64,000 bases of DNA, taken from the NCBI GenBank assembly GCA_964016885.1, contig OZ024742.1, positions 203,670,001 through 203,734,000 of the forward strand. Direction: 5' to 3'. Source of the DNA: Eledone cirrhosa. Taxonomy: Eukaryota. Position 1 is the first letter of the stretch. Each line of letters begins with the position of its first letter. The translations under genes and the position numbers were made by a program. The notes beneath the pieces are model-generated. The model saw nothing but the letters and a program-made list of their open reading frames with translations. It was not told the DNA's origin and searched no databases. Below, one piece after another: positions 11,234 through 59,230 of this stretch.

Positions 11234-11234
<1 letters not shown>

Positions 11235-14896: not shown

Positions 14897-14930
14897 GTTG
14901 AAAAGGAGTGGAAAAGATGGGAAAGACCAC

Positions 14931-19746: not shown

Positions 19747-22700
19747 CTACAGCCGCATGACCAGAGGAGGCCCACTCACACGGGCCATTCTTGCCACATT
19801 CACCCACCTTTCAGCAAATGTACTGGGGGGCAGCACTTCTCTCGCCACCCTCACCTTCCTTTCCAAGTGAAACTTGAAAAAGTTGATGAGGGATTGGCCG
19901 AAGAGAAAAGTGTCTGTCTTCAGTCCTTTCAACCTCGTCCACCATACAATCTCTTTCGCTACTGTAACCAGACAGAGGAAAATTTCCTGCCCTTCCTGGC
20001 CAAAAGAAGGCGGCGGGTCGATCTGCACTATGGATTCGGCCGATAGTCGGATCCGTTCTACACGCGACAACAGCTGTTCAACATAACTCCTCAAGTCAGT
20101 AATGCACGGACATTGGACAAGTGCGTGCAGAACGGTTTCGTCGCTCTGCGCGCATCTCGGGCAGGTCAGTCTGACAGCACTTCCGTGCCTGTAGAGTTTA
20201 TCTCGAACCGGCAGTGCCCCCCGGTAGCACTGCCAAGCGAGGGATTTTTGGAAATTATCCATCGTCCCCGGCTCGAAAGTCCTCCGGTACAGACTGGTCA
20301 GTTCGACTTCGTTGACTCCCAGAGCCTCTCCGAGTGCGTCGTCACGCTTGCCCACCACTAATCCTCTATAGAACTCGAGAGTGGAAGTTCCACTGACCGC
20401 ATTGCCCGCATGGTAGAGGGAAGTGAGTGCCTGGCAACATTCCAGATGCCAGTCACCCAGTCTCGGTCTCTTCTTGACCCAGGACTGCAACTCAGTCAAA
20501 GAAACGAGCTGCGGAAAGGCCCGTCTGACAAACGGCGACCACACCTGTTCACCGTTTAAGCAAAATATCTGGAGATTCCGCAGCCTCAGCGCGTGCCTGC
20601 GCATCATTAGCCACGTCATGCCCAGCCCTCCACGTAGAGGGTGCTGGCAGCAGATGGACCGCCTCACCAGCGGAACCTGACCCCTCCACAAGAATTTGAA
20701 GAGGAGCCGCTCCAAGATGGCGAGGCGCGAACGGGGGCAAGGGACGACAGTCAGACGGTAGTAGATGACGGACGCGATGTACGCGTTCGCCACCTCCGCC
20801 CGACCTTTCAGTGATAGCTTCATCCCAGCCCATTTCTGGGTGAGACTGACTTCCCTGCCCGTCACCTCGTCCCAATTCTTATCCACCTGGGGGTCTGGCC
20901 CGAACCAAACCCCTAGCAACTTTACCGGTCCGTCCGTCCAGCGCCTAACGACGCTGTTGGACGGCATGGACTTGCCTCTCCAGGTGCCGAGTTGCAAGCC
21001 CACTGACTTTTCCGGTTTAAGTTTTGCTCCCGTCAACCTTTCATATTCCTCCAATAAGTTGCCGGCCACCTCGATTTCTGAGGTGTCCAACACCATCACG
21101 GTGATGTCGTCCGCATAAGCCGACACAGCCTTTCTGCGTCCCGGTTCGAGCGGGATGCCCTGCAACAGCTCCAGCTTCCGTAGTAAAGGCTCGAGAGTCA
21201 ATACGTACAGAAGGGGGAGGGGAGAGGGCACCCTTGATGGACCGATCGGGAGACCTGAAACGGTTCCGAGAGGTGGCCATTAATTTTGACCATCGAGCAG
21301 GTGCCGCTATGCATTGCAGCGATCCAGGTTCTGAAGACGGGGCCGAAGCCAGCCGCCTTGAGGACAGCCTCCAGGTACCGATGGTCGACCCTATCGAATC
21401 CTTTCGATTGATCTAAATTGATCAGAGTCCCACCGAAGCCAGATTTACACTCTACCCTCTCTATGATGTATCGCATTAGGTGGAGGTTGTCGTGTATGGA
21501 CCTGGTTGGGATTGCGCAAGTTTGCGCCTCCCCAACCAAATCCCCGACGACAAGCGCCAACCTCTTCGCTAACACCCTGGCCAAAATCTTAAACTCTGTG
21601 TTGAGCAGAGTTATGGGCCTGAAATTGTCTAATGTGTCCCTCTTGTTCTCGTCTTTCCTTATCAGCGTCACTACTGGGAATACTCCCGTTTTGCTGCCAG
21701 TTGCAGTAGAGCGCTTCGAGTAGATTGGAGAACAAGTCTAGCATATTGACGTAAAGCTCGTAGGGCAGACCATCCAAACCGGGTGACTTGTGCCTCATGC
21801 AGCCTACCAGGGCATCCTGAATCTCGGCTGAAGTAATTGGCCTTTCGCAGCGCCCAGCGTCAGCCGTCGAGAGTTGCGGCAAGCCATCGAGGTAGGGACT
21901 GAAGTCCGCCACCATCTCAGACCCGCCACTTCTCCCGAACAACTGAGCAAAATGTTGGCGAAAGGCCTCACACATCCTCTTGGAATTGCTCAGCTCGAGC
22001 CGGTCTCGGTCCGTCAAAGACCGAATCGTGGTTTTATTACCACGCTGCGCCTCTGCCACGCGGGCCCATCGAACAGCTTTGGTTCCCTCGTTTCTCAGAG
22101 CACGCGCCTTAGCTCTGACAATGCAACCTTCGTGTTTCGCATTGAAGAAATGGTCTAATGCCATTCTCGCCGCTAGCACATCAGTTGCAATGCCACTAGC
22201 AATAGCCTCGTCTAACTTATCTACCAACTCTCCCTCCTTTCTATTTTTCTCTAACGCTACTTCTTTCCTAAACTCTATCGATATTACTCTAATCTCTCTT
22301 TTGAGAGCCCCCCACCATCTATTGTTGACGACTCCCCCTGTCAACTTTTTCTTACTAAATTGTTGACCTGGTCCCTGTAAGCCTTACGTGCCGGATATGA
22401 CATGTTTAGCTTCCAGTAACCAGGTCCTAACCTATGCGTCTTATGTAGGTCGACCATACAGATCACAAGCTTGTGATCTGAATAGGCGACCGTTTCAAAA
22501 CGTGGACAGCTTACACTATTTCTGTCTATTTTCCTAATGAAGATCCTGTCTATATACGATCTAGATTACCCTATGCAGTTAGCCCAGGTCCACACTGGCG
22601 CATTAGGGAGACCTAGTCGGTAGCTGTCAGACAGTTGGAACTGGCTGATCAGGTTCTTGAGGCTTTTGCACCCCCCGCTCCTATCGGATACTCCCACACA

Positions 22701-23153
22701 GTCCCAGCGTGCGTCTAAGGTGCCGTTTCAGTCCCCCGCTAACAGTAAAGGGCGAGACGTACCCAGAAAGGCTTCCAGGCGTCTAAAGAAGTCCGGCCGT
22801 CTTTCCCCAGTAGGAGTATAGACGGCCACCAGTCTAAAGTCACCACCTTGATTATTGTTCACGTCCAGGACCACCAACTTCGCGTCCGGGTCCTGGAAGA
22901 TCGACCTTACCTCGAGATCCAGGCCTTTCCTAAACAGCACTGCCACCCCGCCTCACATTCCCGACTGGCTAACAGATGCAAAGATCTGATAGTCGTCGAA
23001 AATGGGGGCTAGTGCACGCGTGTCGGAAATCCTGGTCTCGCTGACTGCAATTACATCCATTTCTAGAGACCTGAGGTCGTTGAGCAGGTGACCCTGCTTC
23101 CAGGACGATCCCAGGCCTCGAACATTTAAACATCCTACTCTTAATACGGCCAT
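19747..23153 (-). pseudogene. LINE ORF2 (APE-RT), several frameshifts/stops
   Basis: Five collinear ORF fragments align to ORF2 of copy 1. Confidence 0.9.
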
Positions 23154-23184
23154 GTTGGCAGGTTAAACAGAGAGAGAGGAAGAT

Positions 23185-25132
23185 TTACTTACCTTCCGGG
23201 CTCTTGTGAAGGTCGGGTTGTTCGACCTCCATAGTTAGTGGGGTTTCTTTTGGGAACCCCTTTAAAAGTCTTGAAGTGGGTTTTACGTTCGGGGTTCCCA
23301 CGTCCCGAGGAAAGCTGTCTCGTATTTCTTTGAATATGTCGAGCGACATTTGCACCAGAACCAAATCTTCCGGCACGCGAAATGTGCTCGATTTAAACAT
23401 TTCCCCCTCTTTTTGTATATTTTCACTTCGTGCTACGAGGGCCATCAGTTCCTTGTTGGCCCTCCTGACGAGCACGAAGTTTTGTATGTTTTGTTGGTGT
23501 GATTTTATTTGTTTGCGTGGCTGTGGTGGTGATGGTTTTGGTGGTGTTGTTTCGGTTGTATCTGTGTTTGTTGTGAGTGCGGTGTTTGGTTTCAGATGTT
23601 TGTGTGTATATTAGTTCTTGCGTCTGTTTAGGTTGTTTGCGTTTGGGGGATTCTGGTGATGGTGATGGTGGTGTTGATGTTGGTGTTATTGGAGAGATGT
23701 TTGCGTGGGTGGTGTCTGCGTTTTTTATTGTGGGTGCTTTTGTGCTTTGTTGAGTTTTTTTTTTTTCTTTTTGTGTTTCCTTTTTTGTATTTTGGGGGAT
23801 TTGGGATTTCCCTCATTTTCACTACTGGTAGATGAGGGATCTGTGTCTGTAAGTGTGCCTGTATGTATGCTTATGGTTTTATTGGTGTGTGTATTTGGGG
23901 GGGGGATTTGACAGCTTTCCTCGTTTCCTCCCTGGGTGGTCAATGTTGGTGGTGGTCTTTCTATTGGTGTTGTTGTTGGTGGTTTTGCCGGTGTTGGTGT
24001 TGGTTGTGGTCCTCGCTCCGGCGACGGCAGCAGTGGAGCCTTTCGACCCCTTGCCTCTTTCAGCAGTTGAGGGCAGAAGGCTCGCAAATGGGTTTTTTCC
24101 CCACAAACAAAACACTGCGGCCTTTTGCCTTCGGTCATAATGTGAATGACCGTCCCATTCTGAAGGCGGATGTGGTGCGGGATTGTCTTCAAATTCTCGG
24201 GCCTGATCTGGAGAAGGATCTCAAGGTCAACCCCGGACCAGTCCTCTCTGGCAGTTCTAGTCACTTCTATAGGGACTTTATCCGTCCCCTCCACAATCAC
24301 ATATCCCAGAAGCCACCACATGTCAAGTTCTGGTGGGATTCTGGGAATGCAGAGACGAGCCGTTCTTTTTCCCATGTGGGAGGGGTACATTATGACCTTG
24401 ATGGTTTTGCAAGGAGTCATGGCGTTTCATCGCGAGGGCTTCTGACTTGAACAACACCGAAATGGTGCCGTACTGTCTGCCCCTCTCTATGTAGTGGGTG
24501 TCTTCTCTGATGCACCTCAGCGCGACTTCGACATCATCTTGTGGGATTAAAGCTGCCCCTTTGGTTTGTGCTGAGATGCATCTATAATGCACCGTTTTGC
24601 GCTCCACTGCCTCAATAGCTCCTACCGGGACAGTTAAGTTGGCCCAGGTTTGCTCTTGCCTGGGCCAACTTTTCATCTTTGTTTGAGAGGTCCATGTTGA
24701 AGCATGGCCTCTTTTTTGCTGCTGCCGCAGCGAAAGTGTTCTTCGTGTTTTCGTTGGGGGTTTTGTTGTCGTTGTTCTTCTTGGTGTTGTTGTTAGCACT
24801 GTCGCTGTTGTTGTCTTTGTTGCCACCGTTGTTCTCGGTGCAGTTGGTATTGTTGCTGTTGGTGTTGTCGCTGTTTGTTTTCATGTTAGTGGTATTGATA
24901 TTGTTGTTGTATTTGTTATTTTTTTTTTTGTTATCTGTATTTCGTTGTCGCTGTTACTGTCATTTTTTTCAAAATTAGAATTCTTATTGGTATCATTGGT
25001 GTCTTTGTTTACCTTGTTTGTGGCGGTGTTTGTGTTATCAATGTGTGTTAATTTCGCTGTAGCGCTCCTCTCAACTTCTACGTCGCTGTCGCACCACAGC
25101 CGACATATTGCTGGGGGGCGTGGCTCAGCCAT
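23185..25132 (-). pseudogene. LINE ORF1 with CCHC knuckle, frameshifted
   Basis: MAEPRPP..., Asn/Thr-rich tract, ERGRQYGTI, EGKRPQCFVCGEKTHLRAFC, ending SPEGK*. Confidence 0.8.

Positions 25133-25339: not shown

Positions 25340-25384
<45 letters not shown>
25340..25384. repeat. (AAT)15 microsatellite between LINE copies 2 and 3
   Basis: Perfect triplet run. Confidence 0.95.
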
Positions 25385-25386
<2 letters not shown>

Positions 25387-25677
25387 TTTCTTTATTGGTC
25401 ACAAGGGCTGACATCAAGAAAAACATTACAGACGGTACAGGACGGTACGATGTGGGTTTTGTGCGTGTAAATATTTTTATTATTTATATATGAAAAGAAA
25501 AAAAAGACATAGAAACATATATATATATAAACAATAAAAATGAAAATCGAAACAATGAAAAATTCCCCAATAGGGGGGAAACCTCCGAGGGTTACTCGTG
25601 GCGAAAACCACACAAAAGACCACGGCCACCCTGACCACCAGGGCAAGCGCCCTCTCTCAATTTTTCCATCTCTCAAA

Positions 25678-28600
25678 CTACAGACGTATATTCAAAGTGT
25701 TCACTCGGACCATTCTCGCTACATTCACCCACCTTTCAACAAACTGGCTCTCCACCCTGATTTTCCTCTTCAAGTGAAACTTGAAACAGTTAATTAGGGA
25801 TTCGCCGAAGAGGAATGTGTCTGTCTTTAACCCTTTCAACCTTGTCCACCACACAATCTCTTTCGCCATGGCCACCAGGCAGATGAAAACCGCCTACCCT
25901 TCCTCCTCGAAGGAAGACGGCGAGACCATCTGCACAATGGACTCAGTCGACAACCGGATCAGTCCTACACGCGACAGCAACTGTTCGACATAGCTCCACA
26001 AGTCAGCAATGCTCGGGCACTGAACGAGTGCGTGCACGACGGTTTCGTCGCTCTGCGCGCATCTCGAACAGGCTCGGCTGACGGCACTTTCGTGCCTGTA
26101 GAGTTTATCTCGAACCGGCGGCGCTCCCCGGTAGCACTGCGAGGCCAGGGATTTTGGGAAGTTATCCATAGGCCCCGGGCTGAAAGTTCTCCGGAAGAGA
26201 GCAAACAGCTGATCTTCTTCGATGCCGAGGATCTCTCCGAGAATGTCGTCGCTCTTCCCCTCCACTAGTCCTCTATAGAACGCCGAGGTGGATGTTCCAC
26301 CGATACTGGTGCCCAGCTGGGAGAGGGCAGTGAGCGCCTGGAGACATTCCAGCTTCCAAGCGCTATCCCTCAGTCTTTTTCTGACCCAGGACTGCAGCTC
26401 CGTCAAGGAGGCGAGCTGTGGGAAAACGTGCCTGGCGAACGGCGACCACACCTGTTCACCATCAAGGAAGCACCAGAGATGTAGCAGCCTCAGCGCATGT
26501 TTGCGCATCATCAGCCATGGCATTCCCAGTCCTCCACGCAACGGGTGTTGACAGCAGATGGATCGTCTGACCATGGGAGCGCGTCCCTTCCACAAAAAGC
26601 GGAAGAGGAGGCGCTCCAGTTTGGTGAGAGTTGGGCTGGAGCAAGGGACGACGGTGAGGCGGTAGCCGATGACGGATGCGATGTACGCATTCGCCACCTC
26701 CGCCCGGCCTTTCAGGGACAGCTTCCTCTCAGCCCATTTCTGGGTGAGGGAGGCCATCCTGCTCGTCACCTCGTTCCAGTTTTTCTCCATCTAGAGGTCC
26801 GGCCCTGAGCAATTTAACCGGTCCGTCCGTCCAACGCCCCACGACGCTGTCGGACGGCATGGACTTGCCTCTCCAGGTGCCGAGCTGCAAGCCCACCGAC
26901 TTTTCCTGGTTTATCTTTGCTCCTGTCACCGCTTCGTATTCCTTGAGAGCGGTGCCGAGCATCTGGACGTGTCTTGTGCTCGACACCACCACGGTGACGT
27001 CGTCAGCGGAAGCCGACTCGGATTTCCCGCATCCTAGTTCGCGTGAGACGCCCCTCATAGCCCCCAGTTTGTGCAGTAACGGCTCGAGAGCAAATACGTA
27101 CAAGAGGGACGAGAGGGGACAACCCTGGCGGACTGAGCGCATGATGCTGAACGGCTGCGACAGGTGACCGTTCACCCTCACAACTGAGCAGATGTCGCTG
27201 TACATTGCTGCGATCCAACCCCTGCGATTCAACCCCTGAAAACGGGCCCGAAACCGGCTGCTTCGAGGACCGCCGCCAGGTACCGATGGTCGACCCTATC
27301 GAATGCTTTGGATTGATCCAAGTTGATCAGTACCCCACCCGTGCCAGGTTCCTTAACCACCCTCTCTATGATGTATCGCATGAGGTGGAGGTTGTCGTGT
27401 ATGGATCTGTCCGGAATGGCGCATGTCTGCGCCTCTCCCACCAGACACTTGACGACAAGCGCCAACCTCGTTGCTAACACCTTGGCCAAAATCTTGAACT
27501 CTGCGTTTAGCAGTGTTATGGGCCTGAAATTATCGATAACATCCCCCTTGTTCGGGTTTTTTCTCAGCAGCCCACTGCTCCCCGGCTCACAAAACTGGGA
27601 ATGCTCCCGTTCTGCTGCCAGTTGCAGTAGACGTTTGCCAAGAGGTCACCGAACAAGTCTGGCATAAATGCATAAAGCTCGTAGGGCAGACCATCCAAAC
27701 CTGGCGATTTACCCCTTGTGCAGTTAGCCATCGCTTCCCGTATTTCACCGGCTGTTATTGGCTTTTCGCAACACTGTGCTGCGGTCGTCGAGAGCCGTGG
27801 CAGTCCGTCGAAGTATGCACTGAAGTACATGCCCCGATCCGGGCCGCCGCCGCTCCCGAACAGTTCAGCAAAGTGCTGCTGAAAAGCTTCACACATCCGC
27901 TCGGGTTCGAGCATCACGCACCTGTTTTGGTCAGACAAAGACCGAATTGTGGATTTGTTGCCACGTCGCGCCTCTGCTACCCGGGCCCATTGGACGGCTT
28001 TTGTCCCCTCGTGTTTCAGAGCACGCGCTCTAGCTCTGACAACGCAGCCAATCTCGCCGCAAGCACGTCGGTTGCGATGCCTGTCCTAAACGCATCTTCT
28101 AGCTTTCTGACTAGCTCTCCCTCTACTCTATTTTCCCCTATCACTACTCCTTTGCTAAACCTAATCGACTCTACTTTAATTGCCCTTTTCAGGGCGAACC
28201 ACCACCTGTTGTTGACGATCGCTCCCGTCAACGCCCGCTTACCTAATACGCTAATCCGGTCTCTGTAGGCTTTGCGCGCCGGGAAAGACGCGTTGAGCTT
28301 CCAGTAAACAGGCCCTTGTCTATGAAGTCTGTCTATGTCGATCTCACAGATCACAAATTTGTGGTCTGTGTAGTCGACTATTTTAAATTGTGGACAACTT
28401 ATACTAGCCTTATCTAGTTCTCTGCAGAATACCCTATCGAGATACGATCTGGATGACCCGATGCGGTTTGTCCATGTCCACATTGGCACATTCGGGTGAT
28501 CCAGTCGAAACCTGTCAGACAATTCAAAACGTCTGAGCAGATTGGGGGAGGCTCTTGCATCCTCCTCCCCTATCCACTAGCCCCACACGATCCCAGCGTG

Positions 28601-29042
28601 CATCCAATATACCGTTCCAGTCACCCACCAACACTAAAGAGCGGGACGTTCCAAGAAAGGTCTCTAGACGTCTGAAGAAATCTGGCCGTCCTGCCCCTGT
28701 TGGGGCGTAGACGGCTACTAGCCTGAAAGCATTGCCATCGCTGCCGGTCACGCCCAGCACCACCGACTTACTTTCTGGGTCTAGGAAGATGGCCCGTATC
28801 GCGAGATCCAAGCCTCTCCGAAAAAGGACGGCGACCCCTCCCCCCGATCCTGGACGGCTGGGAGATGTGTATACATCGTAGCCGCCGAAGATCGGTGCGA
28901 AGGCTTGTGCTTCGGAGATTCTGGTTTCACTGATGGCCACCACATCTATGTTTAGTGACCTGAGGTCGTTGAGCAGGTGACCCTGCTTCCAAGATGACCC
29001 CAGGCCAGGCGCATTTATACTGACTATTCTGAGTACGGCCAT
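25678..29042 (-). pseudogene. LINE ORF2 (APE-RT), multiple frameshifts and short deletions
   Basis: Collinear fragments closely similar to copy 1 ORF2. YADD is mutated to SADD. Confidence 0.9.
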
Positions 29043-29074
29043 GTTGGATGAGAAACGGGGCAAGTGAGAAAGGG

Positions 29075-31198
29075 TCACTTACCTTGTTCGTGTGGTGAAG
29101 GGACAGTAGAACCGTCCCTTTCGCTGGTCATGGGTGTTTCCAAGAGGATGTCAGTGTATATCCTCTTGGTAACCGACCCTCTGAAGTCTCCAACTGCGTT
29201 GGGAAATTTTTGTTTTAAAGGTTTGTACTGTTCTATTGAGATTTCGATGATGCTTATGTTTGTCGGGAGAGTTCTTGGTGTCGGTGGGGTGTAGTAGTTT
29301 TTTTCTGTGATGTCTGTGTGCTGCTTTATATATTGTATGAGTTCTTTTTCTGCGATGTTTATGGCTGTGTACTTTTTGGGGGGAGGGGTGATTTTGTTGC
29401 TGTTTTCTTCTTGTTGCTGTTTGGTGTGTGTGTCTTGTCGTGTTTGCACTGTTGGTGTTTTTGGTGATGCTGGTGGTGGTGTGGTTGTTGTTGTCAGTGG
29501 TGCTTGTGGTGGTGATGGTGGTGATGTTGCTGCAAGTTTCCTTGCTGCCTTTACCCCTCTTTGTATGCCTTCGCTTTTGGAGAGTGAATCTAAGGGTTTT
29601 TTTCTTTTTTCTTTTTTGTGGCAGATCGTTTGCCACTTTACTCCCGCCTCTAACTCCATGTCGGATTCTGTGGCATCTGGGAGGGGTATGTGCTCCACGG
29701 CTGTTGGTGGTGGTAGTGGAGCCCTCTTCGGCAATTTTGTTGCTGGTGTAGCTACTTCAAATGTAGCTATTGGTGTTTCCGCCACTGATGATGCTGCTTT
29801 AGTTGTCCGTGGCCTTGGTACGGGTGCTACAGAAGTTGCCCTGCTACTCACGGTGGAAGGGCTTCGTTTGTTGCCTGCCCTGCTCTTGGTAGCAGCGGAC
29901 CAGGTATTGGAAGGAGAGGGGCCTTCTTCGCTGTCTTCAGCGGGCAAAAGGCCCTGAGGTGACCCTTCGACCCACAGAGATAACATTTTGGCCGACTTCC
30001 TTCTACACTTATAGGGAGTTGGAGTCCTTTCTCGATGTCTATGATACCGGGGTAGCGTCGATACATTCCTGGTCAGTTTGCATAAGCATTTGCATGCCTA
30101 TACCTGACCAGTTCTCTCTCCCTATTTTTTCTACTTGCAGCATGGTCGTCCTGTTCTCGATTCCAGCGAGGACAGACGCGGCCAGCCAAGGCATGGGCAC
30201 GTCGGGTGGGACCTGGGTCACTTTGACCCTCACAATTTTCTGCCCGCAGTAGGAGGGCACCAAGACTATCTCCTCACACTTTAGGGTTTCCAAAGAGTGA
30301 GACTTTGCTTCCTGGGGGTGGCGAAAAGTACGTCTACTGTGGCGTACTTTCTGCCTCGGGTGATGTGGGTTCTGCGTGCCCAGACGCATCCCAAGGCCTT
30401 TTGGATTTGAGCCTCCGTGGCTCTCTCCACTCGATGTGAGATTTTGCTTACGGTGCGGTAAGTCACCGTCCGTAGCTGCTGGTCCTTGAAAAAATCGGGT
30501 GGAGGTTTCAGGGAAACTCTATTTGCGCTTCTTGTCACCATGGCCCTTGCGACTGCCATCTCCTCCTCTGTGACTAACACTGTCTCGATATTTCGGGCGA
30601 CACCTGCAAAAGAAATGGTCCCTTTTTCAGCAGCACCACTATTGCTGCCGCTACTGGTCTTACTGGTGGTGCTGAGATCGCTATTACAGGTATCGGTGTC
30701 ATTGTTGTTGTTTTCGTTGGTACAGTTGTTGGTGTTGTTGTTGTTTTCGTTGATACTGTTGCTGTTGTTACTGTTATTGTGACTGTTGTTATTATTGTTG
30801 TTTTTGTTGATATTGTTCCTACTATTATTATTGTTGTGGCTGTTGTTATTGTCATTGTTATTGTCGTTCTCGACCTGACCGCTGTTATTTTTGTTATTGT
30901 CGTTCTCGACTTTACCGCTGTTATTTTTGTTATTGTCGTTCTCGACTTTACCGCTGTTATTTTTGTTGTTGCTGTTGTTATTGATGGTGTTGATGTTGGT
31001 GTTGTTGTTGGTGTTATTGTTGGTGTTGTTTGTGTTAGAAATATTTGTTAATTTTAAATCTGTAACAATCTTCTTTTCCTTTGTAATATTTTCGTTTATA
31101 TTTACCTCCGCTGGAACGCTGTCTTGTTGACATGCTGAGAAAGTCTCCTTCTCTCTGTGTTGTCTGACAGCGCTCTCTCCCTTTCTTGTGTTATCCAT
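29075..31198 (-). pseudogene. LINE ORF1 with CCHC knuckle and Asn-rich N-terminus, frameshifted
   Basis: SFAGVAR, QIQKALGCVWARRTHITRGRKY, LVPSYCGQ and EGSRPKCYLC match copy 1 ORF1. Ends EQGK*. Confidence 0.82.
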
Positions 31199-31505: not shown

Positions 31506-31541
31506 TCTTCTGATGAAGGACTAGCGTCCGAAACGTTAAGA
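31506..31541 (+). ncRNA. Minimal type I hammerhead ribozyme
   Basis: tctt-CTGATGA-aggac tagc gtcc-GAAA-cg-TT-aaga, with palindromic ACGT in place of stem III. A decayed relative lies on the minus strand at ~2578-2610. Confidence 0.8.
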
Positions 31542-34955: not shown

Positions 34956-35007
34956 TAAGTATGTATGTATACGTACATACATATATGTATACAGACGTAC
35001 AGTAGCA

Positions 35008-35045
<38 letters not shown>

Positions 35046-35477
35046 CATACAGGTACACATACATATATGCACGCATCAGTTTAGCGGACGCTTATTATAA
35101 CGCCGCTTTGTTCGTTTGTAAACAAACTGAACAGCCTGAATTTATGCCATACGGTGTTAAGGCAACCACGTCACCTTTTTGTTCAACACTGACACAGGAA
35201 CGATGTACTAGTTTCAAGCTTGTTAGCTATCATCAGCACCGTATACCCATCTGCCAGATAGTTGAACGTTCGAAAGTATATACTTTCCTTATGAAAATTA
35301 ACGGCTGAGCAGCCTAATTTGCATATTGAGTGAGTTAAATCGGTCAGGCATACCGAAAACGATAAGTTGAAAAAAATGAAAACGAAATTTCATTTCTCAC
35401 TCTTAGTATGGCACTTACTTAAATGTAAGTATGTATGTATACGTACATACATATATGTATACAGACGTACAGTAGCA

Positions 35478-35523
<46 letters not shown>

Positions 35524-35633
35524 CATACAGGTACACATACATATATGCACGCATCAGTTTAGCGGACGCTTATTATAACGCCGCTTTGTTCGTTTGTAAA
35601 CAAACTGAACAGCCTGAATTTATGCCATACGGT
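34956..35633 (-). mobile_element. ORF-less tandem repeat (470-bp period, ~1.4 units) containing an HHR; retrozyme/pLTR-like
   Basis: 34956-35153 recurs at 35426-35633. The whole unit is homologous to 58596-59195 on the opposite strand. Confidence 0.75.
35200..35242 (-). ncRNA. Minimal type I hammerhead ribozyme
   Basis: acggtg-CTGATGA-tagct aaca agctt-GAAA-ctag-TA-catcgt. Confidence 0.85.
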
Positions 35634-41344: not shown

Positions 41345-41665
41345 TATATTTGTGTGTGCGTGTGAATGCGTACGTCTACCTCAATCTACTACCCTACCAC
41401 AACACCTTACTAATCAATGTAAAGTCTTCACACAACACATCTCTGCCACCACCACAACCACAACTTATATGAAACTGTCTGACTGAAACATTGGTGGTCT
41501 GCTCAATCAGTGTTCACATCATATTTACGGAATATTGGCAACAGCATTGATAAATGCAAACATAACACCAAATGGCTCTGTTTAACTGCATTGAGCTATA
41601 CCTTTTACTGTCATTTCTATAATACGAAGAGGGTGTTTGACTCAAACACGCTCCAGTATTCTAAT

Positions 41666-41721
<56 letters not shown>

Positions 41722-41724
<3 letters not shown>

Positions 41725-42535
41725 TACGAGTAGGACCCCAGTCTCGTTTGTCCTCCATATTGCTGAACCATGAGATTACTTCCTGGGTGTTGACCCATAG
41801 GCTAAGTCTGGCGTTTTGCTTAACTTTTGGTATAACGCGGTCTAGGATTTTTTTACTGATTCTCCCTATGTCGGACTTTGTTTGGTTTATAAGCCTGATA
41901 GAAGGTTTACGGTCGAAATCGGATTTGTGGTCCTTCAGTGTGAAATAGGGAGTCCGTGGGTCTAGGGGTTCCGTGCGGTCGGCGACCCCGAGGCTGGAGG
42001 TAATTTGTTGTCCATCTCGATTTATGTCCTCGATGCTTGAATGGTTAGCCTTTTTATAGGTGGAGTTTAGGCTGCTCCTGATCAGTGTGTGGTATCTGTC
42101 GGGGTTGACGAAGTAGAGGTTACCAGTTTTATCCAAGTGCACCATGATGTCGTTGGTGTTTTCATACTCTGTTAATTTGCTACGGAGTTTTTGTAGGAAT
42201 CTGTTGTATCTGGGTTTGAATTTAATGCTCTTGACCAGTTGGAAAAGGTTATTCTCGAAGGGTGAGAGCATAGGGTTCGGAGGGGGAGATTTGTAGGTAT
42301 TAAATCCGAATCTCTCCTTGGTATCGAAGTCCTGATTTTCGCAATATCTGTCGTAGAAAAAAGTTCTCCATCTAAGTCTTTTCGCAAAGAGGTCGATCTT
42401 TTGCGTGAGCATCCGAAGGTAAAGTTTTCTCGGTGGAACTGGGGTGTTCTTGGTGGAGAAGTCGATGTTGTGTTTTCGCATGGTGCGGGTGAAAGAACTT
42501 GAGCTTAGCGGAAAAGTCTGGATACGGCGTGGTAG
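41722..42535 (-). mobile_element. PLE (Naiad-like) ORF N-terminal fragment
   Basis: ORF from 42481: FSTKN.PVP, KRLRWRTFF, FGF, DKTGNLY, YFTLKDHK.DF..KPSIRLIN.TKSDIGRISK.ILD. Truncated into (TA)n before the RT core. Confidence 0.85.
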
Positions 42536-43048
42536 GGTTATTTTATTAATATTAATAGAATAAATAATAGGAACTTAAAACCTAGTGGTAATAGCATAAA
42601 TAATGTACAAGATAACAAATGTAACTGTAGAGATAGATCTAAATGTCCGTTAAATAACAACTGCTTAGTTAAAAATATAGTATACAATTGTAATGTTAAA
42701 ACTGACTCTAATTCTTTTAACTACGTCGGTTCCACATCGACGGAATTTAAACTTCGCTATAATAACCACAAGAATTTTTTCACAGATCCAAGCAAAAAAT
42801 CTTCAACAGCACTATCAGGCGTACTCTGGCAACTTAAGCTAGATAACGTTAGATATTCGACGGCTTGGAATATAGTCTCAAGAGGTATTCCTTTTAATTC
42901 ATCCTCCGAGACATGTGACCTCTGCGCAGAGGAGATATTCTTTATACTAAAATCTAAAAATTCCCTTAATCTACGGACAAATTTATTCAGTTGCTGCAAA
43001 CATAGATTAAACTCAACTTTTAAATATAAATTTAAATTTAAAATGTAG
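42536..43048 (+). pseudogene. PLE GIY-YIG endonuclease, open frame without start codon (absent from ORF track)
   Basis: Manual translation: CNCRDRSKCPLNNNCLVKNIVYNC..YVGSTSTEFKLRYNNHK..CDLCAEE..LNLRTNLFSCCKH, stop at 43046-43048. Confidence 0.85.
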
Positions 43049-46307: not shown

Positions 46308-49300
46308 TTGTAAAGGTTTGTGTGGGTGTTGTGGTGTATGGTGTATATGTAATATAGTGTAAAGGTTTGTGTGGGTGTTGTGGTGTATCGTGTATATGTA
46401 ATATAGTGTAAAGGTTTGTGTGGGTGTTGTGGTGTATGGTGTATATGTAATATAGTGTAAAGGTTTGTGTGGGTGTTGTGGTGTATGGTGTATATGTAAT
46501 ATAGTGTAAAGGTTTGTGTGGGTGTTGTGGTGTATGGTGTATATGTAATATAGTGTGAAGGTTTGTGTGGGTGTTGTGGTGTATGGTGTATATGTAATAT
46601 AGTGTGAAGGTGTGTGTGGGTGTTGTGGTGTATGGTGTATATGTAATATAGTGTAAAGGTTTGTGTGGGTGTTGTGGTGTATCGTGTATATGTAATATAG
46701 TGTAAAGGTTTGTGTGGGTGTTGTGGTGTATGGTGTATATGTAATATAGTGTGAAAGTGTGTGTGGGTGTTGTGGTGTATGGTGTATATGTAATATAGTG
46801 TAAAGGTTTGTGTGGGTGTTGTGGTGTATGGTGTATATGTAATATAGTGTAAAGGTTTGTGTGGGTGTTGTGGTGTATGGTGTATATGTAATATAGTGTA
46901 AAGGTTTGTGTGGGTGTTGTGGTGTATGGTGTATATGTAATATAGTGTAAAGGTTTGTGTGGGTGTTGTGGTGTATGGTGTATATGTAATATAGTGTGAA
47001 GGTTTGTGTGGGTGTTGTGGTGTATGGTGTATATGTAATATAGTGTGAAGGTGTGTGTGGGTGTTGTGGTGTATGGTGTATATGTAATATAGTGTAAAGG
47101 TTTGTGTGGGTGTTGTGGTGTATCGTGTATATGTAATATAGTGTAAAGGTTTGTGTGGGTGTTGTGGTGTATGGTGTATATGTAATATAGTGTAAAGGTT
47201 TGTGTGGGTGTTGTGGTGTATGGTGTATATGTAATATAGTGTAAAGGTTTGTGTGGGTGTTGTGGTGTATGGTGTATATGTAATATAGTGTGAAGGTTTG
47301 TGTGGGTGTTGTGGTGTATGGTGTATATGTAATATAGTGTGAAGGTGTGTGTGGGTGTTGTGGTGTATGGTGTATATGTAATATAGTGTAAAGGTTTGTG
47401 TGGGTGTTGTGGTGTATCGTGTATATGTAATATAGTGTAAAGGTTTGTGTGGGTGTTGTGGTGTATGGTGTATATGTAATATAGTGTGAAGGTGTGTGTG
47501 GGTGTTGTGGTGTATGGTGTATATGTAATATAGTGTAAAGGTTTGTGTGGGTGTTGTGGTGTATCGTGTATATGTAATATAGTGTAAAGGTTTGTGTGGG
47601 TGTTGTGGTGTATGGTGTATATGTAATATAGTGTAAAGGTTTGTGTGGGTGTTGTGGTGTATGGTGTATATGTAATATAGTGTAAAGGTTTGTGTGGGTG
47701 TTGTGGTGTATGGTGTATATGTAATATAGTGTGAAGGTTTGTGTGGGTGTTGTGGTGTATGGTGTATATGTAATATAGTGTGAAGGTGTGTGTGGGTGTT
47801 GTGGTGTATGGTGTATATGTAATATAGTGTAAAGGTTTGTGTGGGTGTTGTGATGTATCGTGTATATGTAATATAGTGTAAAGGTTTGTGTGGGTGTTGT
47901 GGTGTATGGTGTATATGTAATATAGTGTAAAGGTTTGTGTGGGTGTTGTGGTGTATGGTGTATATGTAATATAGTGTAAAGGTTTGTGTGGGTGTTGTGG
48001 TGTATGGTGTATATGTAATATAGTGTAAAGGTTTGTGTGGGTGTTGTGGTGTATGGTGTATATGTAATATAGTGTAAAGGTTTGTGTGGGTGTTGTGGTG
48101 TATGGTGTATATGTAATATAGTGTGAAGGTTTGTGTGGGTGTTGTGGTGTATGGTGTATATGTAATATAGTGTGAAGGTGTGTGTGGGTGTTGTGGTGTA
48201 TGGTGTATATGTAATATAGTGTAAAGGTTTGTGTGGGTGTTGTGGTGTATCGTGTATATGTAATATAGTGTAAAGGTTTGTGTGGGTGTTGTGGTGTATG
48301 GTGTATATGTAATATAGTGTAAAGGTTTGTGTGGGTGTTGTGGTGTATCGTGTATATGTAATATAGTGTGAAGGTTTGTGTGGGTGTTGTGGTGTATGGT
48401 GTATATGTAATATAGTGTAAAGGTTTGTGTGGGTGTTGTGGTGTATGGTGTATATGTAATATAGTGTGAAGGTGTGTGTGGGTGTTGTGGTGTATGGTGT
48501 ATATGTAATATAGTGTGAAGGTGTGTGTGGGTGTTGTGGTGTATGGTGTATATGTAATATAGTGTAAAGGTTTGTGTGGGTGTTGTGGTGTATGGTGTAT
48601 ATGTAATATAGTGTAAAGGTTTGTGTGGGTGTTGTGGTGTATGGTGTATATGTAATATAGTGTGAAGGTTTGTGTGGGTGTTGTGGTGTATGGTGTATAT
48701 GTAATATAGTGTAAAGGTTTGTGTGGGTGTTGTGGTGTATGGTGTATATGTAATATAGTGTGAAGGTTTGTGTGGGTGTTGTGGTGTATGGTGTATATGT
48801 ATATAGTGTGAAGGTTTGTGTGGGTGTTGTGGTGTATGGTGTATATGTATATAGTGTGAAGGTTTGTGTGGGTGTTGTGGTGTATGGTGTATATGTATAT
48901 AGTGTAAAGTTTTGTGTGGGTGTTGTGGTGTATCGTGTATATGTAATATAGTGTAAAGGTTTGTGTGGGTGTTGTGGTGTATGGTGTATATGTAATATAG
49001 TGTGAAGGTTTGTGTGGGTGTTGTGGTGTATGGTGTATATGTAATATAGTGTGAAGGTTTGTGTGGGTGTTGTGGTGTATGGTGTATATGTATATAGTGT
49101 AAAGTTTTGTGTGGGTGTTGTGGTGTATCGTGTATATGTAATATAGTGTAAAGGTTTGTGTGGGTGTTGTGGTGTATGGTGTATATGTAATATAGTGTGA
49201 AGGTTTGTGTGGGTGTTGTGGTGTATGGTGTATATGTAATATAGTGTGAAGGTGTGTGTGGGTGTTGTGGTGTATGGTGTATATGTAATATAGTGTAAAG

Positions 49301-52300
49301 GTTTGTGTGGGTGTTGTGGTGTATCGTGTATATGTAATATAGTGTAAAGGTTTGTGTGGGTGTTGTGGTGTATGGTGTATATGTAATATAGTGTAAAGGT
49401 TTGTGTGGGTGTTGTGGTGTATGGTGTATATGTAATATAGTGTAAAGATTTGTGTGGGTGTTGTGGTGTATGGTGTATATGTAATATCGTGTGAAGGTGT
49501 GTGTGGGTGTTGTGGTGTATGGTGTATATGTAATATAGTGTAAAGGTTTGTGTGGGTGTTGTGGTGTATCGTGTATATGTAATATAGTGTAAAGGTTTGT
49601 GTGGGTGTTGTGGTGTATGGTGTATATGTAATTATAGTGTAAAGGTTTGTGTGGGTGTTGTGGTGTATGGTGTATATGTAATATAGTGTAAAGGTTTGTG
49701 TGGATGTTGTGGTGTATGGTGTATATGTAATATAGTGTGAAGGTGTGTGTGGGTGTTGTGGTGTATGGTGTATATGTAATATAGTGTAAAGGTTTGTGTA
49801 GGTGTTGTGGTGTATCGTGTATATGTAATATAGTGTAAAGGTTTGTGTGGGTGTTGTGGTGTATGGTGTATATGTAATATAGTGTAAAGGTTTGTGTGGG
49901 TGTTGTGGTGTATGGTGTATATGTAATATAGTGTGAAGGTGTGTGTGGGTGTTGTGGTGTATGGTGTATATGTAATATAGTGTAAAGGTTCGTGTGGGTG
50001 TTGTGGTGTATCGTGTATATGTAATATAGTGAAAAGGTTCGTGTGGATGTTGTGGTGTATGGTGTATATGTAATATAGTGTAAAGGTGTGTGTGTGTGTT
50101 GTGGTGTATGGTGTATATGTAATATAGTGTAAAGGTTTGTGTGGGTGTTGTGGTGTATGGTGTATATGTAATATAGTGTGAAGGTTTGTGCGGGTGTTGT
50201 GGTGTATGGTGTATATGTAATATAGTGTAAAGGTTTGTGTGGGTGTTGTGGTGTATGGTGTATATGTAATATAGTGTGAAGGTTTGTGTGGGTGTTGTGG
50301 TGTATGGTGTATATGTATATAGTGTAAAGGTTTGTGTGGGTGTTGTGGTGTATCGTGTATATGTAATATAGTGTAAAGGTTTGTGTGGATGTTGTGGTGT
50401 ATGGTGTATATGTAATATAGTGTAAAGGTTTGTGTGGGTGTTGTGGTGTATCGTGTATATGTAATATAGTGTAAAGGTTTGTGTGGGTGTTGTGGTGTAT
50501 GGTGTATATGTAATATAGTGTAAAGGTTTGTGTGGGTGTTGTGGTGTATGGTGTATATGTAATATAGTGTAAAGGTTTGTGTGGGTGTTGTGGTGTATGG
50601 TGTATATGTATATAGTGTAAAGGTTTGTGTGGGTGTTGTGGTGTATCGTGTATATGTAATATAGTGTAAAGGTTTGTGTGGGTGTTGTGGTGTATGGTGT
50701 ATATGTAATATAGTGTGAAGGTTTGTGTGGGTGTTGTGGTGTATGGTGTATATGTAATATAGTGTAAAGGTTTGTGTGGGTGTTGTGGTGTATGGTGTAT
50801 ATGTAATATAGTGTAAAGGTTTGTGTGGGTGTTGTGGTGTATGGTGTATATGTAATATAGTGTAAAGGTTTGTGTGGCTGTTGTGGTGTATGGTGTATAT
50901 GTAATATAGTGTGAAGGTTTGTGTGGGTGTTGTGGTGTATGGTGTATATGTAATATAGTGTGAAGGTTTGTGTGGGTGTTGTGGTGTATGGTGTATATGT
51001 AATATAGTGTGAAGGTTTGTGTGGGTGTTGTGGTGTATGGTGTATATGTAATATAGTGTAAAGGTTTGTGTGGGTGTTGTGGTGTATGGTGTATATGTAA
51101 TATAGTGTGAAGGTTTGTGTGGGTGTTGTGGTGTATGGTGTATATGTATATAGTGTAAAGTTTTGTGTGGGTGTTGTGGTGTATCGTGTATATGTAATAT
51201 AGTGTGAAGGTGTGTGTGGGTGTTGTGGTGTATGGTGTATATGTAATATAGTGTAAAGGTTTGTGTGGGTGTTGTGGTGTATGGTGTATATGTAATATAG
51301 TGTGAAGGTTTGTGTGGGTGTTGTGGTGTATGGTGTATATGTAATATAGTGTAAAGGTTTGTGTGGGTGTTGTGGTGTATGGTGTATATGTAATATAGTG
51401 TGAAGGTGTGTGTGGGTGTTGTGGTGTATGGTGTATATGTAATATAGTGTAAAGGTTTGTGTGGGTGTTGTGGTGTATGGTGTATATGTAATATAGTGTG
51501 AAGGTTTGTGTGGGTGTTGTGGTGTATGGTGTATATGTATATGGTGTAAAGGTTTGTGTGGGTGTTGTGGTGTATCGTGTATATGTAATATAGTGTGAAG
51601 GTTTGTGTGGGTGTTGTGGTGTATGGTGTATATGTAATATAGTGTGAAGGTGTGAGTGGGTGTTGTGGTGTATGGTGTATATGTAATATAGTGTAAAGGT
51701 TTGTGTGGGTGTTGTGGTGTATGGTGTATATGTAATATAGTGTAAAGGTTTGTGTGGGTGTTGTGGTGTATGGTGTATATGTAATATAGTGTAAAGGTTT
51801 GTGTGGGTGTTGTGGTGTATGGTGTATATGTAATATAGTGTGAAGGTTTGTGTGGGTGTTGTGGTGTATGGTGTATATGTAATATAGTGTAAAGGTTTGT
51901 GTGGGTGTTGTGGTGTATGGTGTATATGTAATATAGTGTGAAGGTTTGTGTGGGTGTTGTGGTGTATGGTGTATATGTATATAGTGTAAAGTTTTGTGTG
52001 GGTGTTGTGGTGTATCGTGTATATGTAATATAGTGTAAAGGTTTGTGTGGGTGTTGTGGTGTATGGTGTATATGTAATATAGTGTGAAGGTTTGTGTGGG
52101 TGTTGTGGTGTATGGTGTATATGTAATATAGTGTAAAGGTTTGTGTGGGTGTTGTGGTGTATGGTGTATATGTAATATAGTGTGAAGGTTTGTGTGGGTG
52201 TTGTGGTGTATGGTGTATATGTATATAGTGTAAAGTTTTGTGTGGGTGTTGTGGTGTATCGTGTATATGTAATATAGTGTAAAGGTTTGTGTGGGTGTTG

Positions 52301-54589
52301 TGGTGTATGGTGTATATGTAATATAGTGTGAAGGTTTGTGTGGGTGTTGTGGTGTATGGTGTATATGTAATATAGTGTGAAGGTGTGTGTGGGTGTTGTG
52401 GTGTATGGTGTATATGTAATATAGTGTAAAGGTTTGTGTGGGTGTTGTGGTGTATCGTGTATATGTAATATAGTGTAAAGGTTTGTGTGGGTGTTGTGGT
52501 GTATGGTGTATATGTAATATAGTGTAAAGGTTTGTGTGGGTGTTGTGGTGTATGGTGTATATGTAATATAGTGTAAAGATTTGTGTGGGTGTTGTGGTGT
52601 ATGGTGTATATGTAATATAGTGTGAAGGTGTGTGTGGGTGTTGTGGTGTATGGTGTATATGTAATATAGTGTAAAGGTTTGTGTGGGTGTTGTGGTGTAT
52701 CGTGTATATGTAATATAGTGTAAAGGTTTGTGTGGGTGTTGTGGTGTATGGTGTATATGTAATTATAGTGTAAAGGTTTGTGTGGGTGTTGTGGTGTATG
52801 GTGTATATGTAATATAGTGTAAAGGTTTGTGTGGATGTTGTGGTGTATGGTGTATATGTAATATAGTGTGAAGGTGTGTGTGGGTGTTGTGGTGTATGGT
52901 GTATATGTAATATAGTGTAAAGGTTTGTGTAGGTGTTGTGGTGTATCGTGTATATGTAATATAGTGTAAAGGTTTGTGTGGGTGTTGTGGTGTATGGTGT
53001 ATATGTAATATAGTGTAAAGGTTTGTGTGGGTGTTGTGGTGTATGGTGTATATGTAATATAGTGTGAAGGTGTGTGTGGGTGTTGTGGTGTATGGTGTAT
53101 ATGTAATATAGTGTAAAGGTGTGTGTGGGTGTTGTGGTGTATGGTGTATATGTAATATAGTGTAAAGGTTTGTGTGGGTGTTGTGGTGTATCGTGTATAT
53201 GTAATATAGTGAAAAGGTTCGTGTGGATGTTGTGGTGTATGGTGTATATGTAATATAGTGTAAAGGTGTGTGTGTGTGTTGTGGTGTATGGTGTATATGT
53301 AATATAGTGTGAAGGTTTGTGCGGGTGTTGTGGTGTATGGTGTATATGTAATATAGTGTGAAGGTGTGTGTGGGTGTTGTGGTGTATGGTGTATATGTAA
53401 TATAGTGTAAAGGTTTGTGTAGGTGTTGTGGTGTATGGTGTATATGTAATATAGTGTGAAGTTTTGTGTGGGTGTTGTGGTGTATCGTGTATATGTAATA
53501 TAGTGTAAAGGTTTGTGTGGGTGTTGTGGTGTATGGTGTATATGTAATATAGTGTAAAGGTTTGTGTGGGTGTTGTGGTGTATGGTGTATATGTAATATA
53601 GTGTGAAGGTGTGTGTGGGTGTTGTGGTGTATGGTGTATATGTAATATAGTGTAAAGGTTTGTGTAGGTGTTGTGGTGTATGGTGTATATGTAATATAGT
53701 GTGAAGTTTTGTGTGGGTGTTGTGGTGTATCGTGTATATGTAATATTGTGTAAAGGTTTGTGTGGGTGTTGTGGTGTATGGTGTATATGTAATATAGTGT
53801 AAAGGTTTGTGTGGGTGTTGTGGTGTATGGTGTATATGTAATATAGTGTGAAGGTGTGTGTGGGTGTTGTGGTGTATGGTTTATATGTAATATAGTGTAA
53901 AGGTTCGTGTGGGTGTTGTGGTGTATGGTGTATATGTAATATAGTGTGAAGTTTTGTGTGGGTGTTGTGGTGTATCGTGTATATGTAATATAGTGTAAAG
54001 GTTTGTGTGGGTGTTGTGGTGTATGGTGTATATGTAATATAGTGTAAAGGTTTGTGTGGGTGTTGTGGTGTATGGTGTATATGTAATATAGTGTGAAGGT
54101 GTGTGTGGGTGTTGTGGTGTATGGTGTATATGTAATATAGTGTAAAGGTTTGTGTAGGTGTTGTGGTGTATGGTGTATATGTAATATAGTGTGAAGTTTT
54201 GTGTGGGTGTTGTGGTGTATCGTGTATATGTAATATAGTGTAAAGGTTTGTGTGGGTGTTGTGGTGTATGGTGTATATGTAATATAGTGTGAAGGTGTGT
54301 GTGGGTGTTGTGGTGTATGGTTTATATGTAATATAGTGTAAAGGTTCGCGTGGGTGTTGTGGTGTATGGTGTATATGTAATATAGTGCAAAGGTTCGTGT
54401 GGGTGTTGTGGTGTATCGTGTATATGTAATATAGTGTAAAGGTTCGTGTGGATGTTGTGGTGTATGGTGTATATGTAATATAGTGTAAAGGTGTGTGTGT
54501 GTGTTGTGGTGTATGGTGTATATGTAATATAGTGTAAAGGTTTGTGTGGGTGTTGTGGTGTATGGTGTATATGTAATATAGTGTGAAGG
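46308..54589. repeat. 49-bp satellite array (~169 units)
   Basis: Unit gtgtaaaggtttgtgtgggtgttgtggtgtatggtgtatatgtaatata. Highly homogeneous, with almost no C on the plus strand. Confidence 0.97.
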
Positions 54590-58595: not shown

Positions 58596-59189
58596 AACAC
58601 ACCGAGCATTATAATAAATGTTTGGTGAATCCATACGTACATATATATATGTGTGCATGTATGTATATATATATACATACTACTGTACGTCTGTATGTAC
58701 GTATACATACTTATATTTAAGTAACAGCCGTACTAAGAGTGGGAAATGACATTTCGTTTCATTTTTTCCGTTTATCGTTTTCGGTGCACCCGGCCGATTA
58801 ACCCACTCGATATGCAAATTGGGCTACTCAGTCCTTAATATGCATAAGGTAAGTATATACGTTCAACAATCTGGCAGGAAGGTATACGTTGCTGACGATA
58901 GCTAATAAGCTTGAAACTAGTACAGCGTTCCTTTGTCAGTGTTGAACAAACGAGCAACGATGGTTGCTAGACACTACGGCTTAATATGGGATGTTTGTTT
59001 ACAAACACACTGAGCATTATAATAAATGTTCGGTGAATCCATACGTACATATATATATGTAAGCATGTATGTATATATATATACATACTACTGTACGTCT
59101 GTATACATGTATGTATGTATGTGTACATACTTATATTTAAGTAACAGCCGTACTAAGAGTTGGAAATGAAATTTTGTTTCATTTTTTCC

Positions 59190-59195
<6 letters not shown>
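58596..59195 (+). mobile_element. ORF-less tandem repeat (408-bp period, ~1.5 units) containing an HHR; retrozyme/pLTR-like
   Basis: 58596-58775 recurs at 59004-59195 and ends in (TA)n. Homologous to 34956-35633. Confidence 0.78.
58886..58928 (+). ncRNA. Minimal type I hammerhead ribozyme
   Basis: acgttg-CTGACGA-tagct aata agctt-GAAA-ctag-TA-cagcgt. Confidence 0.85.

Positions 59196-59230
<35 letters not shown>

What the first reader, a model, noticed from the sequence alone, without database searches (positions are those of the whole stretch)
58596..59195. Second tandem HHR repeat family with covarying stem I and a conserved octamer
Seen: two diverged copies (here on plus, period 408; 34956-35633 on minus, period 470), each ~1.4-1.5 units but starting at different points of the unit, as expected from a circular or multimeric template. 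Stem I differs by a compensatory change (acgTtg/caGcgt versus acgGtg/caTcgt) while the core, stem II and ACTAGT are kept. Both retain ATGCAAAT (58812-58819; 35317-35324) about 70 nt upstream of the HHR. Established: the HHR-containing newt satellite 2 uses an snRNA-type promoter with an octamer element. Inference: a self-transcribed retrozyme-like family.
Basis: partly seen in the sequence, partly recalled or inferred. Interest (0 to 1): 0.7.

Follow-up and report, generated by a model that had tools for sequence, protein, structure and literature searches.

The report
Penelope-spread retrozyme with U6-like promoter box
These two stretches are copies of a very abundant 420-480-base non-coding repeat with a hammerhead ribozyme motif (predicted to cut its own RNA); its copies end exactly as Penelope-type jumping genes of the same genome do, so those likely paste it, and each unit carries the DNA word found upstream of this animal's U6-type small-RNA genes, so it likely starts its own transcription.

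Summary
Observation largely confirmed. Both copies (1.4 units, one hammerhead each) belong to a non-LTR retrozyme family with 24,749 exact hammerhead matches; a sister family adds most of 11,340. Stems I and II covary, but A/B close stem II with U·U, not G-C. The start points are not a permutation signal: 5' ends are random truncations, while 150 of 185 3' ends fall at two fixed sites next to (TA)n, and no two-armed insertion uses the same site twice. A young Hydra-type Penelope element in this genome has the same footprint. The octamer is the longest or joint-longest word shared with the sister family, and it matches a box at -76 to -78 of five host U6/U6atac/MRP promoters; U1 and U2 lack it. 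Against: box-TATA spacing is 40-41, not 45-47, and the box also lies in an RNA hairpin. One insertion has 20 boxes with identical A>G changes, favouring a circular template; another array does not fit simply. Transcription and cleavage are untested. This scan found the same system earlier on other DNA of this genome.

The parts
58596..59195 (+). Copy A: 5'-truncated 1.43-unit insertion of subfamily A (unit about 420 nt); 3' end at fixed site 2
58811..58822 (+). Box TATGCAAATTGG (octamer 58812-58819); matches the -77 element of host U6/U6atac/MRP genes; also the 5' arm of an RNA hairpin
58828..58832 (+). TCAGT, same word and distance to TATA (26 nt) as the U1/U2 upstream core; most family copies read TCAGC; weak signal
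58835..58846 (+). 3' arm of the box hairpin (one mismatch to the box)
58853..58860 (+). TATA-like GTATATAC, 41 nt after the octamer start; predicts a start near 58884 (inferred)
58861..58947 (+). Extended stem I enclosing the hammerhead (z -3.4); its outer part needs RNA from upstream of the predicted start
58886..58928 (+). Type I hammerhead motif: 6-bp stem I, CUGACGA, stem II with U10.1·U11.1, GAAA, palindromic ACUAGU helix III; predicted cut after 58922 (GUA)
59126..59136 (+). Fixed 3'-end site 1 (unit position about 214), passed through in this copy
59137..59195 (+). Tail between site 1 and site 2, with a GAAA..TTTC hairpin and a T6 run (59182-59187); site 2 lies about 8 nt beyond the T run
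59193..59228 (.). (TA)18 tract at the 3' end (target)
34956..35633 (-). Copy B: 5'-truncated 1.42-unit insertion of subfamily B (unit 470-480 nt); 3' end at site 1, followed by TA-rich DNA
35314..35325 (-). Box TATGCAAATTAG of copy B, identical over 12 nt to the box of host U6 locus L152
35276..35283 (-). TATA-like GTATATAC of copy B (spacing 41)
35200..35242 (-). Type I hammerhead motif of copy B; predicted cut after 35206

Best explanation
The two stretches are 5'-truncated copies of an abundant non-coding hammerhead repeat (a non-LTR retrozyme) that is likely transcribed from a promoter inside each unit, predicted to cut itself into unit-length and probably circular RNA, and likely pasted into (TA)n by Penelope-like (Hydra-type) enzymes supplied in trans. 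Shown: tandem non-coding units, covarying hammerhead stems, two fixed 3' ends about 57-72 nt apart, random 5' ends, head-to-head arms that use one site each, the same footprint on an intact Penelope-type element, and a box matching host U6-type promoters just upstream of a TATA-like word and the ribozyme. Inferred: transcription starts about 10-30 nt before the core and reads through the T run into the next unit; two hammerheads (probably acting as a dimer through the palindromic helix III) release a monomer that contains the next unit's promoter; the monomer is ligated; two reverse transcriptases prime from both sides of a cut in (TA)n at the two internal sites and run one or many rounds. The two window copies hold one hammerhead each, so neither can by itself release a doubly cut monomer. 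Step odds: PLE-type mobilisation 0.9, own promoter 0.6, circular monomer as the main template 0.6, ribozyme active in A/B 0.65.
For: Copy number and arrays. Covariation: 7 of 14 pairs with changes on both sides, 96% of cells paired, slid controls 35-50% (12 hand-picked variants). Ends: 150 of 185 3' ends in two windows covering 2-8% of the unit; 23 of 189 5' ends there (KS for uniformity p 0.34-0.72); 39 of 60 head-to-head pairs use site 1 plus site 2 and none uses the same site twice; 1 of 185 3' ends near the cleavage site. (TA)3+ within 40 nt of 143 of 150 site ends. Site-2 ends followed by TA also appear in runs X1, X4 and X6. A 784-aa element with RWR, DKT and CxCx5C motifs (Hydra features in PMC8557442) ends at two fixed sites 80 nt apart in (TA)n, as described for PLE internal initiation (PMC11167929). 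Promoter: box at -76 to -78 and TATA at -31 in three distinct U6 loci, the best U6atac and MRP; unit scores 14.9-19.7 bits against 14.1-18.3 leave-one-out, reached by 5, 1, 0 and 0 of 2000 resampled units; longest or joint-longest word shared between A/B and C; no variant shared by 3 or more loci in the octamer of any family, against 23 of 100 columns after the cleavage site in A; 31,579 box+TATA matches versus 2 control. RNA intermediate: one two-armed insertion has 18 identical units and 20 of 20 boxes with the same three A>G changes in the hairpin. Units within a locus are closer than units between loci.
Against: Box-to-TATA spacing is 40-41 in the repeats and 45-47 in all five host promoters; family C has CATATAA and scores only 4.7 there. 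The box is also a hairpin arm whose partner is nearly as conserved (11 nt between B and C), so RNA structure or RT binding could explain it. 14 other U6 hits and 7 of 8 U6atac hits lack the box; I set them aside as probable retrocopies (inference). The matrix was defined after seeing the octamer. The distal CCTCCCTT-type word of host snRNA genes was not seen in the printed units. Template must extend past T5-T7 runs, awkward for Pol III. Zero inherited variants in 8 columns is weak on its own. A/B have U·U at 10.1-11.1 where PMC4209133 calls G-C highly conserved. A 31-unit array has 19 distinct units with recurring, roughly 3-4-periodic variants, and L091 has one intact box among mutated ones: these fit multimeric templates or later DNA-level rearrangement. 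The Hydra element examined shares no significant sequence with the unit (best E 0.24), so the partner is not identified. End windows were drawn from the data; the sample is biased to young copies, mostly on one contig.
Confidence: 0.68

Rival explanations
1. Same PLE-mobilised retrozyme, but the octamer box is kept only as an RNA hairpin (structure or protein-binding site); transcription comes from outside promoters by read-through.
For: The box folds as a hairpin in A, B and C; clustered A>G changes show it is paired in RNA; spacing to TATA differs from all five host promoters; arrays with a changed box exist.
Against: The 5' arm is invariant over 10 nt while the 3' arm changes and always leaves one mismatch; a 12-nt identity to a host U6 box with a TATA-like word downstream in the right orientation is unlikely by chance.
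Confidence: 0.25
2. The template is a linear or multimeric read-through RNA in which the ribozyme is slow or dispensable; long arrays grow partly by unequal recombination after insertion.
For: Heterogeneous, semi-periodic 31-unit array and mixed L091 array; hammerhead mutants did not affect insertion by the anole PLE in vitro (PMC11167929, part 2 read); non-canonical 10.1-11.1 pair; 8 of 9 Xenopus retrozymes showed no cleavage (10.64898/2026.07.22.740005, part 3 read).
Against: 20 identically changed boxes on both arms of one insertion; compensatory changes in stems I and II across families.
Confidence: 0.25
3. These are solo or tandem pseudo-LTRs (truncated 3' ends) of an autonomous PLE, not a separate non-coding element.
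For: Identical insertion footprint to a PLE; PLE fragments lie near some copies.
Against: Units repeat head to tail up to 31 times without an ORF (longest ATG ORF 49-64 aa; 137 in B across the TA tract); no recurrent ORF junction in 113 loci; the one apparent junction (L113) is an insertion into an older PLE with a 9-bp duplication.
Confidence: 0.05

Closest known systems
Metazoan non-LTR retrozymes (Cervera and de la Pena 2020, PMC7229834: passages and part 4 of 6 read; Li, Clavereau and Pollet 2026, 10.64898/2026.07.22.740005: parts 1-3 of 5 read)
   Same: Low-GC (35-38%) non-coding tandem units with one type I hammerhead each, short palindromic helix III, thousands of dispersed copies, highly paired fold, proposed PLE dependence.
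   Different: Unit at or above the upper size range (420-480 nt); U·U at 10.1-11.1; the parts read describe no internal promoter, no two fixed 3' ends and no two-armed insertions. RNA, cleavage and circles are shown there and untested here.
Newt satellite 2 and schistosome hammerhead satellite (original papers not held; one passage in PMC2220036 read)
   Same: Hammerhead repeat with an internal promoter: snRNA-type Pol II in newt, Pol III in schistosome, as cited in that passage.
   Different: Here the box matches the host's U6/U6atac/MRP class, while spacing and a TCAGY word resemble the U1/U2 class.
Hydra-clade and Poseidon Penelope-like elements (PMC8557442, passages; PMC11167929, parts 1-2 of 4)
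   Same: Inverted 5'-truncated arm, tail on one arm only, two internal RT start sites, (TA)n targets, hammerhead.
   Different: No ORF; tail 57-72 nt against the 30-40 nt described; no sequence homology to the one Hydra-type family examined.

Membership tests
Non-LTR retrozyme | Type I hammerhead motif in every unit | tested here: met
   Core and covarying stems; 10.1-11.1 is non-canonical in A/B
Non-LTR retrozyme | Short low-GC tandem units in dispersed multimers | tested here: met
   420-482 nt, GC 0.35-0.38; arrays
Non-LTR retrozyme | No protein coding | tested here: met
   Longest ATG ORF 49-64 aa, 137 aa across the TA tract of B
Non-LTR retrozyme | Self-cleavage of the transcript | not testable with these tools
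   Needs an in vitro assay
Non-LTR retrozyme | Expression as linear and circular monomers | tested here: inconclusive
   Indirect only: 20 identically A>G-changed boxes against heterogeneous arrays
PLE-mobilised element | Two fixed 3' ends with a tail on one arm | tested here: met
   150 of 185 ends; 39 of 60 pairs one site each, none the same site twice
PLE-mobilised element | Inverted 5'-truncated arm and (TA)n targets | tested here: met
   62 of 113 loci head-to-head; 143 of 150 site ends next to TA
PLE-mobilised element | Sequence shared with the pLTR of an autonomous partner | tested here: inconclusive
   One family examined, best E 0.24
Autonomous PLE | RT plus GIY-YIG ORF linked to the repeat | tested here: not met
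Host U6-type (Pol III type 3) promoter | Upstream box TATGSWAATKAG as in host U6, U6atac, MRP | tested here: met
Host U6-type (Pol III type 3) promoter | TATA box 45-47 nt after the box | tested here: not met
   Spacing 41, 41, 40, 40
Host U6-type (Pol III type 3) promoter | Transcript ends at the first long T run | tested here: not met
   Copied RNA extends past the T run and through whole units; in A and B the first T4+ run does lie just before site 2
Host U1/U2-type (Pol II snRNA) promoter | TCAGT at -56 to -58, about 26-28 nt before a TATA-like word | tested here: inconclusive
   8 of 8 tabulated U1/U2 loci; TCAGY at 26 nt in A and B, CCACT in C; a 5-nt word has little power
Either promoter class | Box-dependent transcription from a defined start | not testable with these tools
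   Needs 5' mapping and reporter assays

The most novel reading that the evidence does not exclude
A retrozyme that carries a captured, hybrid host snRNA promoter (U6-class upstream box on U1/U2-like spacing) inside its own circular RNA. Because the ribozyme cut places the promoter of the next unit inside the monomer, an upstream-type promoter survives retrotransposition, every multi-unit insertion is a new self-transcribing source, and two Penelope reverse transcriptases copy one circle from both sides of a break. Tens of thousands of such promoter boxes now lie across the genome.
Probability: 0.4. Interest if true: 0.72.

Novelty: new variant of a known kind. Interest (0 to 1): 0.52.

Why it matters
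How animal retrozymes are transcribed and which enzyme copies them are open in the papers read (PLEs are proposed, not shown). Here both become testable at base resolution: a predicted start near 58884, a box and TATA to mutate, two RT start sites, and an intact young Penelope-type element in the same genome. It also defines this animal's U6-type promoter, and shows a natural 10.1-11.1 series (G-C, U·U, C·A, C-G) in hammerheads that spread to many thousands of copies.

Tried and rejected
Rfam found no hammerhead in the window; only TA-repeat miRNA matches below gathering score. A DNA search of the genome with copy B returned nothing, an artefact of common-word skipping, since the pattern search found B-type copies. 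No RNA holder listed. First end mapping was spoiled by TA-only matches for A/B and redone. Pfam gave no family for window PLE fragments. A possible chimeric PLE/retrozyme two-armed insertion at L113 was rejected: the repeat sits inside an older PLE with a 9-bp duplication. Permuted ends as evidence of circularity: rejected. 3' ends at the cleavage site: rejected (1 of 185). Pol III termination as the origin of 3' ends: rejected, since site 2 is about 8 nt past the T run and site 1 has none in A. No target-site duplication seen by eye at the two window copies. Coats 1994 and Ferbeyre 1998 are not held. Paper searches (listings only) showed no cephalopod retrozyme paper, no mollusc U6 promoter paper and nothing on U·U at 10.1-11.1; subscription journals and supplements, including closed bioRxiv ones, were not seen and may bear on novelty. 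No covariance model was built. How many loci carry the A>G-changed box genome-wide was left open.

Full report
Observation. Periods are 408/420 in A and 478/470 in B. Each copy has one hammerhead motif. Stem I swaps U·G for G·U; an A-U allele exists elsewhere in the family. The octamers are at the stated places. Rfam does not detect the motif.

Family. The 31-nt core pattern has 24,749 exact matches in the 3.0-Gb genome and 0 for the control. A relaxed pattern excluding U at 10.1 gives 11,340 (control 7); the first 100 listed are mostly a sister family C (466-470 nt, G10.1-C11.1) with a few copies of a variant D. A and B are 85% identical in aligned columns, and each is about 72% identical to C (global alignment, gaps excluded). 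Units are non-coding, 35-38% GC, and fold well (A: z -6.5) with a similar hairpin layout in A, B and C. On 12 hand-picked hammerhead variants, 7 of 14 pairs change on both sides and 96% of cells pair, against 35-50% for slid controls. The exception is 10.1-11.1: 7 of 12 rows are unpaired (U·U in A/B, C·A in one D). PMC4209133 (passages) describes 6-bp helix I, 4-bp helix II and a short palindromic helix III needing dimers as typical of metazoan type I motifs, and G10.1-C11.1 as highly conserved. Activity of A/B is therefore likely but uncertain. The organism is probably a cephalopod; that label comes from earlier scan notes and was not tested.

Ends. I mapped arms in 113 loci: 112 of the 150 fetched (overlapping duplicates dropped) plus window copy B. 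Thirty of the fetched loci were best matches to copy A; the rest were the first pattern hits on contig C1, so the sample favours young copies. 3' ends fall in two windows: A 88 of 113, B 27 of 35, C 22 of 24, C2 13 of 13. The windows cover 2-8% of the unit and were drawn from the data, widened in A/B for diverged copies. 5' ends are consistent with uniform scatter (23 of 189 in the windows). Of 60 head-to-head pairs with both ends visible, 39 use site 1 and site 2, 21 have at least one end elsewhere, and none uses one site twice. 143 of 150 site ends lie next to TA repeats. Window copy A ends at site 2 and copy B at site 1. So the differing start points are truncations, not permutations.

Mobilising enzyme. 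A PLE fragment in the window led to a young family with an intact 784-aa ORF in many near-identical copies. It has RWR, DKT, YRDD, CxCx5C and YIG motifs, matching the Hydra description in PMC8557442 (passages; no tree built). In 18 stretches its arms end almost always at two sites 80 nt apart, directly before (TA)n, one site per arm. PMC11167929 (parts 1-2) shows that a PLE RT starts at two internal sites that bound the genomic tail. The retrozyme therefore bears a PLE footprint. This PLE shares no significant sequence with the unit, so it is an example of the mechanism, not the identified partner. No recurrent ORF junction was found in 113 loci; the best candidate was an insertion into an older PLE.

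Promoter. Three distinct U6 loci, the best U6atac hit and the single MRP gene carry TATGSWAATKAG at -76 to -78 and a TATA box at -31. Fourteen other U6 hits and 7 of 8 U6atac hits lack it and were set aside as probable retrocopies; one array copy has it displaced by an insertion. None of 10 distinct U1 or 6 U2 upstream regions, nor RNase P, has it; 8 of 8 tabulated U1/U2 loci have TCAGT at -56 to -58, and two further U2 loci read TCAAT. A matrix from the five promoters scores the repeat boxes at 14.9-19.7 bits, reached by 5, 1, 0 and 0 of 2000 resampled units (the matrix was defined after seeing the octamer). The box is the longest exact word between B and C (12 nt) and joint-longest between A and C (10 nt), longer than most hammerhead blocks. 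Box plus TATA-like word occurs 31,579 times against 2. But the spacing is 40-41, not 45-47. A and B have TCAGY 26 nt before TATA, as U1/U2 do; C does not. Both geometries predict a start near 58884, just before stem I. The polymerase is unresolved: the box argues for Pol III, read-through of T5-T7 runs and the spacing for Pol II. The box is also one arm of a hairpin whose other arm varies yet always leaves one mismatch, which fits sequence constraint on the box plus pairing, but does not exclude an RNA-only role. PMC2220036 (one passage) cites internal promoters for the newt (snRNA-type, Pol II) and schistosome (Pol III) hammerhead satellites, so the idea has precedent.

Template. One family C insertion has 13 plus 7 hammerheads on two arms, 18 of 18 full units identical, and all 20 boxes carry the same three A>G changes, seen in none of 16 other C loci. 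Clustered A>G in a hairpin is what A-to-I editing gives (established knowledge), so one edited RNA was most simply copied 20 times, which favours a circle. A source locus that already had the changes is the alternative. Against a simple picture, a 31-unit arm has 19 distinct units with recurring variants, and a family A array has 8 changed boxes and one intact. Mean divergence in A is 3.0% within an arm, 3.5% between arms and 6.9% between loci; in B 0.2%, 1.3% and 8.0%.

Verdict. A real, young, very abundant non-LTR retrozyme with a clear Penelope-type insertion footprint and a probable internal promoter related to host snRNA-class promoters. The kind is known; the promoter match, the two-site footprint and the U·U core variant were not in the papers read. 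I reached the promoter and end results before reading earlier scan notes, which report the same system on other DNA of this genome; they are not counted as support. Novelty: new variant of a known kind. Interest 0.52.

Noticed in passing
window 31506-31541 (+): A separate compact hammerhead-like motif with an extra A after CTGATGA, as in PLE minimal hammerheads; not related to this family by BLAST.
   Followed up: no
window 198-1444 and 41642-43048: Fragments of Penelope-like elements (RT and GIY-YIG); the second is two-armed and belongs to a young family with intact 784-aa Hydra-type ORFs and 3.53-kb tandem units.
   Followed up: partly
L275, about 60 nt upstream of the PLE's hammerhead-like motif: An inverted TGCAAATTAG, resembling the box hairpin's 3' arm of family C (E 0.93; may be chance).
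   Followed up: no
L202, L203, L192, L193: U6 and U6atac copies without promoter that start right after (TA)n tracts; possibly retrocopies made by TA-targeting enzymes.
   Followed up: no
L151-L153, L171, L173, L199, L215-L219, at -255 to -286: A shared distal word (A)CCTCCCTT upstream of U1, U2, U6 and RNase P genes; RNase P has a U1/U2-like rather than U6-like upstream region.
   Followed up: partly
window 11189-15376, 19448-23195, 25340-29532: Three diverged copies of an L1/Tx1-like LINE, one with a 1040-aa open frame (family label from recall).
   Followed up: no
window 46309-54589: A 49-bp satellite of 169 copies with extreme GC skew.
   Followed up: no
L113 5100-6970: A single-arm retrozyme copy inserted into an older PLE with a 9-bp target duplication, inside a larger inverted duplication.
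   Followed up: yes
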